A DNA stretch of 64,000 nucleotides from the human T2T-CHM13v2.0 reference genome, Homo sapiens. The translations under genes and the position numbers were made by a program. The stretch lies in the NCBI RefSeq assembly GCF_009914755.1, contig NC_060926.1, one strand, 5' to 3'. Below the pieces are notes generated by a model, which saw only the letters and a list, made by a program, of their open reading frames with translations, was not told the origin of the DNA and searched no databases. Below are positions 1,366 to 6,924 of the stretch, one piece after another. Numbering within the stretch: position 1 is the first letter of the stretch; the number at the start of each line of letters is the position of its first letter.

Positions 1366-1747
<382 letters not shown>

Positions 1748-2103
1748 GCTTAAGTTTTATATTTCAGGAATTTATTTTTAAAGTTTTCCTAAGGACATCT
1801 TGCCTTGAATAGTGTTGGCACAGATTTTATTATACTAACATTTCTGCTACTAACAATCATAAATGTCAAACAAGACATATAAAATAGTTATTTGAAAGCA
1901 TAGGATAGTGACAAGCAGGCAGATACTCGAGGGAATAAAATGATTGAAAAAAAGGAAATATACTAGTTGCAATCCATATTTACATGTTTTTCCCCCACTC
2001 TCAAAAATGGCTGGGAATTGAAAAAGGAATCCAGAAAAAGAGGAAGTCCACAGAAGGTAGAAACTCCAAAATCTGCATACATATTCTCTGCATACATCAA
2101 ATC
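1748..2103 (-). other. Non-viral, non-Alu segment carried inside the split Alu: candidate 3'-transduced flank of the source HERV-H
   Basis: Lies between the 3' LTR end (2104) and the tail; no repeat family recognised; contains minus-strand AATAAA at 1776-1771. Confidence 0.65.
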
Positions 2104-2511
2104 TTTCATGCGCGTCCATGTGAAGAGACCACCAAACCTTTGTGTGAGCAACAAGGCTGCTTATTTCACCTGGGTACAGATGGGCTGAGTCCGAAAAGAG
2201 AGTCAGCAAAGGGAGATGGGGTGGGGCTGTTTTATAAGATTTGGGTAGGTAAAGGAAAATTACAGTCAAAGGGGGGTTGTTCTCTGGCGGGCAGGAGTGG
2301 GGGGTCACAAGGTGCTCAGTAGGGGAGCTTTTGAGCCAGGATGAGCCAGAAGGAATTTCACAAGATAATGTCATCAGTTAAGGCAGGAACAGGCCATTTT
2401 CACTTCTTTTGTGGTGGAATGTCATCAGTTAAGGCAGGAACCGGCCATCTGGATGTGTAGGTGCAGGTCACAGGGGATATGATGGCTTAGCTTGGGATCA
2501 GAGGCCTGACA
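2104..2511 (-). mobile_element. LTR7 (HERV-H 3' LTR, complete U3-R-U5)
   Basis: Minus strand starts TGTCAGGCCTC and ends GGACGCGCATGAAA; TATAAAA box; two copies of TGTCATCAGTTAAGGCAGGAAC; polypurine tract AGACAGGAA immediately upstream. Confidence 0.95.
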
Positions 2512-3630
2512 TTCCTGTCTTATGTTAATAAGAAAAATAAAACGAAATAGTGGTAAAGTGTTGGGACGGTGAAAATTTTCGGGGGTGGTATGGAGAAATA
2601 ATGGGAGATGTTTCTCAGGGCTGCTTCGAATGGGATTAGGGGTGGCCTGGGAACCTAGAGTGGGAGAGATTAAGCTGAAGGAAGATTTTGTGGTAAGGGG
2701 TGGTATTGTGGGATTGTTAGAAGAAACATTTGTCGTGTAGAATTATTGGTGATGGCCTGGATACGGTTTTGTATGAATTGAAAAACTAAATGGAATAACT
2801 TCTAAACAGGTATTAAAGGACTAGGAATCGGGAGGACCTAGGACATCTAATTAGAGAGTGCCTAAGGAGGTTCAGCATAGCCTTGCCAGCAAAGAGTATT
2901 TATTTTAAGAGTTAAGAGTGGCGGTTTGGGGATAGCACCAGGAAATATCAGCTGTGATGGCTTGGAGAAACCGGCAGTGTAAAAAAAGCAGGACATTTAT
3001 GAGTAGTTGAGAACGGTGAATAGGAGTCTGACTAGACAGAAGATAGTAGGGATGACAAGTTTTTTGGGGCACAGTCTAAGTTGGTCTGGTGTCTGGAATG
3101 AGACTGGGGCTTAATAAAAAGGAGCATCTATACAGGAGCTTAAATGGGCTGTACCTTGTAGCATTCCGAGGACAGGCCTGAATTCTGAGAAGGGCAAGAG
3201 GTGAAAGTACTGTCTAATCTTTTTTAAGTTGGAGGCTGAGCTTGGTGAGGTGTGTCTTTAAAGACCATTAGTCTGTTCTACCTTTCCTGAAGATTGAGGA
3301 CCATAAGGGATATAAAGGTTTCACTGAATACTAAGAGCCTGAGAAACTGCTTGGGTGATTTGACTAGTAAAGGCTGGTCTGTTATCAGACTGTATAGAGG
3401 TGGGAAGGCTAAACTGAGGAATTATGTCTGACAGAAGGGAAGAAATGACCGTGGTGGCCTTCTCAGACCCTGTAGGAAAGGCCTCTACCTATCCAGTGAA
3501 AGCGTCTACCTAGACTAAGGTATTTTTGTTTACTGACTCGGGGCATGTGAGTAAAGTCAATTTGCCAGTCCTGGGCGGGGGCAAATCCTTGAACTTGATG
3601 TGCAGGGAAGGTGGAACTGCCATCAATAAA

Positions 3631-4152
3631 CTAAATGTGATCAGGGTGAGGAACAGGGAAGAAGCCAATATGGGGAAATGGGGTGAATGTCAGGTGGATC
3701 AGAGAGATACAGTCATGAGGGTCAGGTGTGGTATCCGGAATAATGTGGGAGGCCGGATTGAAGTCCGGGCCAGGAACAATAGTAATTGTGAGAGACTCAA
3801 CAAAGAGTGAGTACAGCTGAAGGAGCCAGGAAGCAGAAAGTACATGCCTCAGGTGTGAGGAAGAAAATAGATTTTGGAAGTTATGAGAGCTGCAGAGAGT
3901 GAGTTGAGCATAGTTTGTGATTTTGAGGGCCTCTGAAACTATTAGGGCGGTGGCAGCCGCTGCACGGAGACATGATGGCCAGCCTAAAACAGTAAGGTCA
4001 AGTTGTTTGGACAAAAAGGCTACAGGACGTGATCCTGGTCCTGGTGTAAGAATTCTGACTGCACAGCCCTGCACTTCAGCTGTGGGTAATGAAAAGGGTT
4101 GGGATGAGTCAGGGAGACCTAGGGTGGGGGCAGTCTTTAAAGCTGTCTTCAA
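3631..4152 (-). pseudogene. pol: HERV-H pol fragment (RT connection/tether region)
   Basis: LKTAPTLGLPD...RPVAFLSKQLDLTVLGWPSCLRAAAATA, typical gammaretrovirus-like Pol. Confidence 0.85.
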
Positions 4153-4332
4153 GGAATGGAAAGAGGAGTGGGGAAAGGATTTAGGATCTATGGGGTCAGT
4201 AGGTTTCCTTTTGTGAGTTTATATAATGGTTTTGTTAGGATGGCAAAACCAGGTATCTAAAGTTAAAAGTATCAACCATGCCTAGGAAGGAAAGGAGTTG
4301 TTGTTTTGTAGAAGGTGCTGGGGTTTGAGAGA

Positions 4333-4899
4333 TCAGTTGGACACAATCAGCATGGAGAGCACGTGTGTTTTTATGAGAATTATGCCGAGATAGGTAACAG
4401 ATGAGGATGAAATTTGGACTTGACTGAAGTAATGGGGGCTGTCTGTGAAGCCTTGCGGCAGTACAGCCCAGGTAATTTGCTGAGCCTGATGGGAGTCAGG
4501 GTCAGTCCAGGTGAAAGCGAAGAGAGGCTGGGATGAAGGGTGTAAAGGAATAGTAAAGAAAGCATGTTTGAGATCCAGAACAGAATAATGGATTGTGGAG
4601 GGAGGTATTGAGGATAGGAGAGTATATGGGTTTGGCACCACGGGGTGGGTAGGCAAAACAATTTGGTTGATAAGGCGCAGATCCTGAACTAACCTGTAAG
4701 CCTTGTCTGGTTTTAGGACAGGTGAAATGGGGGAATTGTAAGGGGAGTTTTTAGGTTTTAAAAGGCCATGCTGTAGCAGGCGAGTGATAACAGGCTTTAA
4801 TCCTTTTAAAGCGTGCTGTGGGATGGGATATTGGTGTTGAGCGGGGTAAGCATGAATAGGTTTTAATGAGATGGTAAGGGGTGCATGATCGGTCGCCAA
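4333..4899 (-). pseudogene. pol: HERV-H reverse transcriptase N-terminal fragment
   Basis: QYPIP...SPYNSPI...YRLVQDLR...YSVLDLKHAFF...FAFTW...VLPQGFTDSP; no YxDD motif follows, so defective. Confidence 0.9.
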
Positions 4900-5073
4900 G
4901 GAGGGAGTAGAGGTATCTTATACTAGTGGGCTAAGGTGGGGAGATACAAGGGGAGGACGTGAAGGAGGCTTTGAACTGGGGGGAAAAAAGCGGCATGTAG
5001 CCCAGGAATAGTCAGGGAAGCAGATAATTTAAAGTGTCTCGGCCTAATAAGGGAACTGGGCAGGTGAGGATAA

Positions 5074-5262
5074 CTAAAAGGAGTGCTTAAAAGAGTATTG
5101 TCTAAGTTGGCACCAGAGTTGGGGAGTTTTAAGAGGTTTAGAAGCCTGGCCATCAATACCAACAATAGTTATGGAGGCAAGGGAAACAGGCCCTTGAAAA
5201 GAAGGTAATGTGGAGTGGGTAGCCTCCATATTGATTAAGAAGGGGACAGACTTACCTTCCAC
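5074..5262 (-). pseudogene. pro: HERV-H protease remnant
   Basis: FLINMEATHSTL (degenerate LxDTGA site) and IVGIDG flap motif. Confidence 0.75.
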
Positions 5263-6630
5263 TGTGAGTTACCCAGAGAGTCTGTGATGGTCCTGTAGGC
5301 TTTCGAGGCAATCGGGCAGTCTCAGTCTTCAGCTGCTAAGCCGAGAAGATCTGGGAAGGAGTCAGAGAGCCTTGGGCCAGAGTTCCAGGGCCTCTGGGAG
5401 TGGCTGCTAGGTGAGTTGAACAGTCCGATTTTCAGTGGCACAGATGGGACACAGCTTGGGAGGAATCCTGGGCTGTGGGCATTCCTTGACCCAGTGGCCA
5501 GATTTCTTGCACTTGTAGCAAGCTCTTGTGGGAGGAGGTTCTGGAGGAACGCCTTGCAGCTGCCGTCAGGCGTTTGGAAGTTCTTGTGTGCTGGAGATGT
5601 GGCTGGGGTTTGGCTCACAGTGGAGGCAAGGAATTGCAACACAGAAATATGTTGCTACTTGGCTGCTGCTACTCTATTATTGTTCACCTTGAAGGTGAGG
5701 TTAATTAAGTCCTGTTGTGGGGTTTGAGGGCTGGAATTTAATTTTTGGAGATTTATTTAATGTCGGGAGCAGATTGGGTAAAAAATAAAATGTATATTGA
5801 GAATAAGACGGCCTTTTGACCTTTCAGGGTCTAGGGCTGTAAAGCGTCTCAGGGCTGCTGCCAAATGAGCCGTGAGCTGGGCTGGGTTTTTATATTTGAT
5901 GAAAGAGCCTAAACGCTAACTGATTTGGGAGAGGTCGGATAAAGAAAAAGGAGCATCAACCTTGACTATGCCTTTAGCTCCAGCCACCTTTTTAAGAGGA
6001 AATTGCTGGGCAGGTGGGAGACGGCTAGTTGCGGAATGAAACTGTAAGCTGGACTGGGTGTGAGGAGGGGAGGTGATAAAAGGATTATAGGGTGGAGGAG
6101 CCGAGGCTGAGGAAGAATTGGGACCTAGCTCGGCCTGGCGAGGAGGGGAGAGGTCAGATGGGTCTGTAGAAAAGGAAGATTAGAAAGACCCAGCAATGCT
6201 TGGGGTTGGGACTGAGGGGACAGGCGGAAGGGAAAGAAGGAAGATTTGGGATGAGTTGCATTGGGAACAGAGGGGAGGGACTGATATGTAAAAGAATGCC
6301 TGGACGTTAGGCACCTCAGACCATTTGCCCATTTTACGACAAGAATTATCTAGATCTTGTAGGATGGAAAAATTGAAAGTGCCGTTTTCTGGCTATTTAG
6401 AGCCATTGTCAAGTTTGTATTGGGGCTAAGCGGTGTTGCAGAAGAAAATAAGATGCTTAGATTTTAGGTCAGGCGAGAGTTGAAGAGGTTTTAAGTTCTT
6501 AAGAACACAGGCTAAGGGAGAAGAAGGAGGAATGGAGGGTGGAAGCTTGCCTATAGTGAAGGAGGCAAGGTTAAGAAAAAGGTAGAGACACGGAGAAGCG
6601 GGTGGGGAGCAGCCCTGGGCTGCAATGTGG

Positions 6631-6924
<294 letters not shown>

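What the first reader, a model, noticed from the sequence alone, without database searches (positions are those of the whole stretch)
1748..2103. ~356 bp 3' transduction: host DNA carried along by a HERV-H read-through transcript
Seen: a normal retroviral RNA ends at R, but this copy has the whole 3' LTR including U5 followed by 356 bp of non-viral sequence, a minus-strand AATAAA (1776-1771) and, ~23 nt later, the A-rich tail, all enclosed between the two Alu arms. Inference: the source provirus read through its LTR into flanking DNA and was polyadenylated there, so this segment is a barcode for the parent locus. Its first bases (minus GATTT) should be the parent's 5-bp TSD. An LTR-initiated, L1-mobilised transduction is a little-described route of sequence shuffling.
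Basis: partly seen in the sequence, partly recalled or inferred. Interest (0 to 1): 0.8.

Follow-up and report, generated by a model that had tools for sequence, protein, structure and literature searches.

The report
HERV-H retrocopy carrying chr5 flanking DNA
An old endogenous retrovirus on chromosome 5 was transcribed past its own end, and the LINE-1 machinery pasted that RNA, with 376 bases of chromosome 5 DNA attached, into an Alu on chromosome 2; it is a tidy molecular fossil and a new variant of a known process.

Summary
Window 1682-6693 (minus strand) is an RNA-derived copy of a HERV-H-type provirus inserted into the middle of an Alu. It has no 5' U3. It starts, after one extra G, at the base where three other HERV-H retrocopies start, 29 nt past the TATA box. 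It keeps the complete 3' LTR including U5, then continues with 376 nt (1728-2103) of non-viral DNA.

That DNA has one other copy in the assembly, on chr5 (363 of 372 aligned bases identical).

Corrections:
- The segment is 376 nt, not 356.
- The hexamer most likely used is 1744-1739, not 1776-1771.
- The tail is now a (GT)15/TA microsatellite.
- The flanking duplication is certain for only 4 nt.
- The copy lacks 537 nt (U5, primer-binding site, leader).

The source's 3' LTR reads AATAAG where its 5' LTR reads AATAAA, which plausibly explains the read-through. A genome scan found at least 19 ordinary HERV-H retrocopies, so the transduction is the new part. Confidence 0.9.

The parts
1516..1681 (-). 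3' half of the target Alu (poly-T on plus at 1516-1523), ending ...GCTAATTT
   Evidence: Aligned to two whole Alus of the window; coordinates
1682..1727 (-). Degenerate tail. On plus it reads ATATATAAATATATTT plus (GT)15; on the sense strand (AC)15 followed by AT-rich bases, 50% A
   Evidence: Read directly; no similarity to the chr5 flank
1728..2103 (-). Transduced chr5 DNA, 376 nt, copied from G000:C5:145143095-145143466
   Evidence: Only 2 places in the assembly; 363 matches, 9 mismatches and one 4-nt gap against L003 595-966
1739..1744 (-). AATAAA, the most likely polyadenylation signal used. Homology to the parent ends 11 nt downstream, or 15 nt if GTG at 1724-1726 is counted
   Evidence: the same hexamer is present in the parent at L003 606-611
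1771..1776 (-).
2099..2103 (-). Copy of the parent provirus's 5-bp target-site duplication (AAATC on plus, GATTT on minus)
   Evidence: AAATC flanks both ends of the chr5 provirus, L003 962-966 and 6518-6522
2104..2511 (-). Complete 3' LTR (U3-R-U5). TATA at 2237-2230, start-site equivalent at 2207, usual R/U5 border at about 2144
   Evidence: 387 of 406 aligned bases identical to the parent's 3' LTR; R end defined by 21 R-plus-poly(A) loci
2160..2165 (-). LTR polyadenylation hexamer reading AATAAG instead of AATAAA
   Evidence: Shared with the parent's 3' LTR. The parent's 5' LTR reads AATAAA. AATAAA read directly in the 12 canonical retrocopies
2512..6630 (-). Decayed internal retroviral region with pol remnants
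   Evidence: 3855 of 4109 aligned bases identical to the parent; Pfam RVT_1 E 1.4e-12 and RT_RNaseH_2 E 4e-7 on minus-strand frames
6631..6637 (-). Junction of a 537-nt gap relative to the parent (U5, primer-binding site and leader missing), inside a 7-nt direct repeat GTGAGCA (9 of 10 over 10 nt)
   Evidence: the junction was found nowhere else among the 40 scored of 1843 candidates
6638..6692 (-). 5' R region. Together with the 7 junction bases at 6631-6637 it spans R from the transcription start to the usual poly(A) site. No U3 upstream
   Evidence: 57 of 60 identical to the parent's 5' LTR against 55 of 60 to its 3' LTR; 5'-LTR-type bases at the discriminating sites
6693..6693 (-). One extra G (C on plus) not templated by the LTR, between the Alu and R
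   Evidence: All three LTRs compared have a different base here. The same extra G occurs in the chr5 12.43 Mb retrocopy. Cap origin is recalled knowledge
6694..6827 (-). 5' half of the target Alu, starting ATTTTTGTATTTTTAG
   Evidence: overlaps the other arm by ATTT (1678-1681 and 6694-6697)

Best explanation
Window 1682-6693 is a LINE-1-made retrocopy (processed pseudogene) of a HERV-H-type provirus that sits on chr5 at G000:C5:145143467-145149017, minus strand.

The proposed sequence of events:
1. Transcription began at the normal start in the source's 5' LTR.
2. It ran through the provirus and failed to stop in the 3' LTR, whose hexamer reads AATAAG.
3. It continued 376 nt into chr5 DNA.
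4. It was cleaved about 11-15 nt after an AATAAA in that DNA and polyadenylated.
5. LINE-1 proteins reverse-transcribed this RNA at a nick in the A-rich linker of an Alu on chr2.

The source locus, the start, the end, the absence of U3 and the carried DNA are shown. The agent (LINE-1), the reason for read-through (the weak hexamer) and the origin of the tail from poly(A) are inferred.
For: - The carried segment has exactly one other copy, with 363 of 372 aligned bases identical, directly against the U5 end of a provirus on chr5.
- That provirus has two full LTRs, a primer-binding site next to the 5' LTR, and AAATC on both sides. It was therefore placed by integrase and is the source, not a sibling.
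- Its flank continues as unrelated DNA where the window copy ends.
- The whole copy aligns to it with 4605 of 4887 aligned bases identical.
- The copy's 5' end is GCTGACTC preceded by one extra G, 29 nt after TATAAA.
- 3 of 3 full-length canonical HERV-H retrocopies examined start at the same base. Their flanking duplications are 14, 15 and 13 (one mismatch) nt.
- The 5' R matches the source's 5' LTR better (57 of 60 against 55 of 60). It has the 5'-type base at the hexamer site, while the copy's 3' LTR shares 17 sites with the source's 3' LTR against its 5' LTR.
- All 12 canonical retrocopies read directly have AATAAA. The source's 3' LTR and the copy have AATAAG.
- The two Alu arms rebuild one Alu with a 4-nt overlap.
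Against: - The flanking duplication is certain for only 4 nt (ATTT on plus). It extends to 10 nt only with 2 mismatches in AT-rich sequence. The three canonical copies have 13-15 nt.
- The nick site reads AC/AAAAAT on the sense strand rather than the textbook TT/AAAA.
- The tail is not a poly(A) run now.
- The copy lacks 537 nt that the source has, so it is not a simple end-to-end copy.
- The carried DNA is less diverged than the viral part: 1.9% against 4.0-4.7% at non-CpG sites, Fisher p 0.011. No test here explains this.
- AATAAG is not private to the source. The same 19-mer is at 11 places in the genome, and its weakness as a signal was not measured.
- No other primate genome could be searched, so no empty site was seen.
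Confidence: 0.9

Rival explanations
1. A DNA-level duplication (segmental duplication or repair-mediated capture) moved a chr5 piece, provirus plus flank, into the chr2 Alu.
For: Two-copy homology of about 5 kb between chr5 and chr2; a very short flanking duplication.
Against: One end falls on the transcription start used by 3 of 3 other retrocopies, with an untemplated G. The other end falls 11-15 nt after an AATAAA and is followed by a tail. A DNA break would have no reason to respect either point. 5' U3 is missing exactly.
Confidence: 0.03
2. The read-through RNA was reverse-transcribed and inserted by the retrovirus's own enzymes in a virus-like particle, as in retroviral capture of host sequence, not by LINE-1.
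For: The 4-nt duplication is closer in size to the source's 5-bp integrase duplication than to the 13-15 nt of the canonical retrocopies.
Against: Retroviral reverse transcription rebuilds two full LTRs, and integrase needs LTR ends. Here the 5' end is R with no U3, and the 3' end is host DNA plus a tail. The primer-binding site is absent from the copy.
Confidence: 0.03
3. Two separate events: an ordinary HERV-H retrocopy or provirus arrived first, and the 376-nt piece arrived next to it independently.
For: None beyond the fact that the piece is non-viral.
Against: The LTR-to-flank junction, including the 5-bp AAATC, is base-for-base the same as on chr5. The junction therefore existed before the move.
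Confidence: 0.01
4. Same RNA route, but insertion independent of the LINE-1 endonuclease, at a pre-existing break in the Alu.
For: A short (4-nt) duplication and a nick site that departs from TT/AAAA.
Against: The site is the A-rich Alu linker, on the strand and in the orientation expected for priming on a T run. The tail region has since been reshaped by microsatellite slippage, which can hide a longer duplication.
Confidence: 0.1

Closest known systems
HERV-W processed pseudogenes made by LINE-1 (Pavlicek et al. 2002, as summarised in Grandi et al. 2016, PMC5016936; passages read)
   Same: A retroviral genomic RNA starting at R, without 5' U3, inserted with a tail and a flanking duplication outside the retroviral integration route.
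   Different: The group is different (HERV-H type). The 3' end is not U3-R: it is a whole LTR plus 376 nt of host DNA. U5 is also absent from the 5' side because of a 537-nt gap.
3' transduction by LINE-1 and SVA elements
   Same: A weak element-borne poly(A) signal is bypassed and a downstream genomic signal is used. The unique flank travels with the element and identifies the source locus.
   Different: The transcript is driven by a retroviral LTR and the element is not a non-LTR retrotransposon. LINE-1 acts purely in trans.
Canonical HERV-H retrocopies in the same genome (found here)
   Same: Same start base and same family. Inserted with duplications of 13-15 nt in the three examined in full.
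   Different: They end at the R/U5 border right after GTTGCTCAC with poly(A) and, in the 12 read directly, carry AATAAA. The three full-length ones keep U5 and the primer-binding site.

Membership tests
LINE-1-made HERV processed pseudogene (criteria quoted in PMC5016936) | 5' LTR truncated to begin at R (no U3) | tested here: met
   The copy begins at GCTGACTC (6692) with the Alu directly upstream; no U3. This is the same start as 3 of 3 canonical HERV-H retrocopies.
LINE-1-made HERV processed pseudogene (criteria quoted in PMC5016936) | 3' LTR truncated to U3-R, ending at the LTR's own poly(A) site | tested here: not met
   The 3' LTR is complete, with U5 at 2104 to about 2143, and is followed by 376 nt of chr5 DNA. 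This departure is what makes it a variant.
LINE-1-made HERV processed pseudogene (criteria quoted in PMC5016936) | Poly(A) tail | tested here: inconclusive
   46 nt of (AC)15 plus AT-rich sequence on the sense strand, 50% A, at the right place. Origin from poly(A) is inferred.
LINE-1-made HERV processed pseudogene (criteria quoted in PMC5016936) | [quoted passage not shown] | tested here: inconclusive
   Only a 4-nt overlap (ATTT on plus) is certain; 8 of 10 if extended. The site reads AC/AAAAAT in the Alu linker.
3' transduction | Unique non-element DNA between the element's 3' end and the tail, which at another locus lies directly 3' of a source element | tested here: met
   2 places in the assembly. 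On chr5 it abuts the U5 end of a two-LTR provirus.
3' transduction | A poly(A) signal near the end of the carried DNA, also present at the source | tested here: met
   AATAAA at 1744-1739, 11 nt before homology ends; the same hexamer is at L003 606-611.
HERV-H / LTR7 group | LTR and internal similarity to the group, and a histidine-tRNA primer-binding site | not testable with these tools
   No repeat library (Repbase or Dfam) is on hand, so the names HERV-H and LTR7 and the His assignment of the primer-binding site are recalled. Tested here: a retroviral pol remnant; the R region matches 21 other LTR loci; the internal part matches many loci.

The most novel reading that the evidence does not exclude
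HERV-H, not only HERV-W, was repeatedly copied by LINE-1: at least 19 separate events still carry an intact tail in this genome. A source with a weakened 3'-LTR signal exported host DNA this way. If so, this would be the first described LINE-1-type 3' transduction borne by an endogenous retrovirus. Such flanks could serve as barcodes showing which HERV-H loci were transcribed in the germ line or early embryo millions of years ago.
Probability: 0.45. Interest if true: 0.6.

Novelty: new variant of a known kind. Interest (0 to 1): 0.5.

Why it matters
- **A traceable source.** It shows that an LTR-driven read-through transcript can move host DNA between chromosomes through LINE-1. It ties a retrocopy to its exact source provirus, which is rarely possible for a high-copy family.
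- **A record of past expression.** The chr5 provirus must have been transcribed in the germ line or early embryo when the copy was made. HERV-H transcription in early human development is much studied (recalled), so a fossil record of active loci is useful.
- **A correction to the reviews.** The side result of at least 19 ordinary HERV-H retrocopies conflicts with a review abstract calling HERV-W the sole HERV group mobilised by LINE-1 (PMC5537654, abstract read).
- **Limits.** The DNA moved here is short and non-genic, so no functional consequence is shown.

Tried and rejected
- **Splicing as the cause of the 537-nt gap.** Rejected. No GT or AG lies at the junction. A base inside the junction is of the R type, so the break must lie in TGCTCAC.
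- **The gap junction as a shared variant.** Only the window spans it among the 40 scored of 1843 candidates. This is a lower bound only.
- **AATAAG as a private mutation of the source.** Rejected. The 19-mer is at 11 places.
- **A longer target duplication.** 8 of 10, or 9 of 14, in AT-rich sequence is not convincing (own reading).
- **Literature.** Pavlicek 2002 (PMC155283) and Sjottem 1996 (PMC189804) are not held, so I could not check whether HERV-H pseudogenes or the LTR start site are described there. Searches listed no paper on a HERV-H retrocopy or ERV-borne transduction. From those listings I read search-hit passages in eight papers, not whole texts. Six exact phrases for HERV-H pseudogenes or retrocopies gave 0 papers.
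- **Direction of the changes.** I did not polarise substitutions with other HERV-H copies as outgroup, so it is not known which lineage carries the excess divergence of the viral part.

Full report
**What is in the window**

Read on the minus strand, the region runs as follows.
- The 5' half of an Alu lies at 6827-6694.
- One extra G sits at 6693.
- A 62-nt stretch of LTR (6692-6631) begins GCTGACTC.
- About 4.1 kb of decayed retroviral interior follows (6630-2512).
- A complete 408-nt LTR lies at 2511-2104.
- 376 nt of non-viral DNA lie at 2103-1728.
- A 46-nt microsatellite lies at 1727-1682.
- The 3' half of the same Alu lies at 1681-1516.

Aligned to two whole Alus of the window, the two arms are complementary halves that overlap by only ATTT. 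Minus-strand reading frames in the interior match Pfam RVT_1 (E 1.4e-12) and RT_RNaseH_2 (E 4e-7). The names HERV-H and LTR7 are recalled, because no repeat library was available.

**The carried segment has one source**

A search of the window's own assembly with 1748-2103 found exactly two places: itself and G000:C5:145143115-145143466, at 96% identity over the full length.

On chr5 the segment lies directly against the U5 end of an LTR. That LTR belongs to a provirus with two complete LTRs, at L003 967-1376 and 6107-6517. A primer-binding site sits next to the 5' LTR. The pentamer AAATC lies on both sides, at L003 962-966 and 6518-6522. The provirus was therefore placed by a retroviral integrase.

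Homology between the two loci runs from window 1728 to 6626 (L003 595-5607) and breaks down inside the shared repeat at window 6631-6637 (L003 5612-5618):

| Part | Identical of aligned bases | Identity |
|---|---|---|
| Flank | 363 of 372 | 97.6% |
| 3' LTR | 387 of 406 | 95.3% |
| Interior | 3855 of 4109 | 93.8% |

Below window 1728 the chr5 sequence continues as unrelated unique DNA, while the window turns into microsatellite and Alu. So chr5 is the source and chr2 the offspring.

**The copy went through RNA**

The window copy has no 5' U3. Its first templated base is the G of GCTGACTC, 29 nt downstream of the TATAAA seen in the intact LTRs.

To test whether that base is the transcription start, I looked for ordinary retrocopies of the family. 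The pattern TGTTGCTCAC, up to 8 bases, then A12 gave 63 matches at 23 distinct places, against 3 for the reversed control.
- 12 of 12 places inspected are LTR U3-R ending in poly(A).
- 9 of the other 11 inspected are LTR R ending in poly(A), in most with U3 upstream. One of them is R alone, and one is truncated inside U3.
- That makes 21 of 23 in total.
- Three places on chr9 share flanks and are one event, leaving at least 19 events.

For three of these I fetched the upstream DNA. All three are full-length copies that start at the same GCTGACTC, one of them with an extra G as in the window. They are flanked by duplications of 14, 15 and 13 (one mismatch) nt. This fixes the start of R, and fixes its end right after GTTGCTCAC.

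In the window copy the 5' R piece resembles the source's 5' LTR (57 of 60) more than its 3' LTR (55 of 60). It also has the 5'-type base at the hexamer site. The copy's 3' LTR shares 17 sites with the source's 3' LTR against the source's 5' LTR. A further 11 sites are private to the source's 3' LTR, 6 are private to the copy, 2 differ in all three, and 369 are the same in all three. So the transcript began in the 5' LTR and read through the 3' LTR.

**Why it read through, and where it ended**

The hexamer in R reads AATAAA in the source's 5' LTR and in all 12 canonical retrocopies read directly. It reads AATAAG in the source's 3' LTR and in the copy's 3' LTR. The change therefore predates the copying event.

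That this caused the read-through is inference. The variant is not unique, since the same 19-mer is at 11 places in the genome, and its strength was not measured.

In the carried DNA there are minus-strand AATAAA hexamers at 1831-1826, 1776-1771 and 1744-1739, all also present on chr5. Homology ends 11 nt after the last of them, or 15 nt if GTG at 1724-1726 is counted.

**Departures from a textbook insertion**

- The target duplication is certain for only 4 nt.
- The site reads AC/AAAAAT in the Alu's A-rich linker.
- The tail is now (AC)15 plus AT-rich sequence on the sense strand. Poly(A) tails are known to decay into microsatellites (recalled), and this may have overwritten a longer duplication.
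- The copy lacks 537 nt present in the source (U5, primer-binding site and leader). The break lies inside a 7-nt repeat, GTGAGCA at L003 5612-5618 and 6149-6155, which matches at 9 of 10 over 10 nt.
- There is no splice signal at the break. Among the 40 scored of 1843 candidates, no other locus spans the junction.
- The three canonical full-length copies keep this region.

The gap could have arisen by a reverse-transcriptase jump or by later slippage; the data do not decide between them.

**Timing**

The source's two LTRs are 92.6% identical (378 of 408). The copy's and the source's 3' LTRs are 95.3% identical. Under a clock, the site counts place the copying at roughly two thirds of the provirus's age before present.

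With recalled rates of 0.13-0.2% per million years per lineage, the provirus would be about 18-28 million years old and the copy about 12-18 (from the LTR), or about 6-9 (from the flank alone). These are rough figures. No other primate genome could be searched.

**Comparison with what is known**

HERV-W processed pseudogenes are defined by three features (passage read in PMC5016936, quoting Pavlicek 2002):
- R-U5 and U3-R truncated LTRs;
- a poly(A) tail;
- a TT/AAAA site with a 5-15 bp duplication.

The window copy meets the first half of the first criterion and fails the second half. That failure is the point of interest. It is built like a LINE-1 or SVA 3' transduction (recalled), but is carried by an LTR-driven retroviral transcript.

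A review abstract calls HERV-W the sole HERV group mobilised by LINE-1 (PMC5537654, abstract read). Five topic searches listed nothing on HERV-H retrocopies or ERV-borne transduction, and I read only search-hit passages in eight of the listed papers. Six exact phrases gave 0 papers. The original 2002 paper is not held, so an earlier mention cannot be excluded.

**Verdict**

The piece moved is small and non-genic. The value lies in the clean source-offspring pair and in showing that the family was a recurrent LINE-1 template.

Noticed in passing
G000 places listed (loci L010-L039, L043-L053): 21 of 23 places where TGTTGCTCAC is followed by at least 12 A are HERV-H-type LTR R ends with poly(A). 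That is at least 19 separate LINE-1-type retrocopies of this family, although a review abstract names HERV-W as the only such group.
   Followed up: partly
L047 (G000:C14:33487170-33487410): A retrocopy consisting of R alone (transcription start to poly(A) site, about 64 nt) plus a tail, flanked by a repeat of AAAACTCTGTTC. Short R-only LTR transcripts therefore existed and were also copied.
   Followed up: no
window 6631-6637 and L003 6149-6155: The 537-nt gap in the copy ends exactly at the usual R/U5 border, so the 5' piece equals a whole R RNA. This may be coincidence of a 7-nt repeat, or a template switch onto the end of a cleaved R transcript. It remains unexplained.
   Followed up: partly
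window 1728-2103 against 2104-6626: The carried host DNA is less diverged from the source than the viral part: non-CpG 1.9% against 4.0-4.7%, Fisher p 0.011. Possible causes are base composition (31% against 47-50% G+C) or gene conversion of the viral part by other family members. Neither was tested.
   Followed up: no
window 2175 and 5256-5392, minus strand: The supplied RefSeq table has predicted lncRNA LOC107985868 exons starting at 5392, inside the retroviral interior, and one spanning -441 to 2175. The latter begins 32 nt past the start-site position of the copy's 3' LTR and runs through the whole carried segment. The copy's own LTR may therefore also drive read-through transcripts.
   Followed up: no
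L003 955-966 and 6518-6530: The rebuilt pre-integration site of the chr5 provirus reads CATCAAATCTTTGATG, a near-perfect palindrome centred on the duplicated AAATC.
   Followed up: no
L031, L038, L039 (G000:C9 at 42.4, 47.6 and 77.3 Mb): Three HERV-H retrocopy ends share the same downstream flank. One retrocopy was later spread by duplications on chr9.
   Followed up: no
L003 about 5048-5200 against window about 6120-6200: The source has a 71-nt tandem duplication in the interior that the copy lacks. Which state is older was not determined.
   Followed up: no
L049 (G000:C19:61264600-61264840): An unrelated sequence ending ...GCAATAAATCTTACTGTTGCTCAC plus a tail looks like the poly(A) end of another LTR family's retrocopy. 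It does not match the window's LTR.
   Followed up: no
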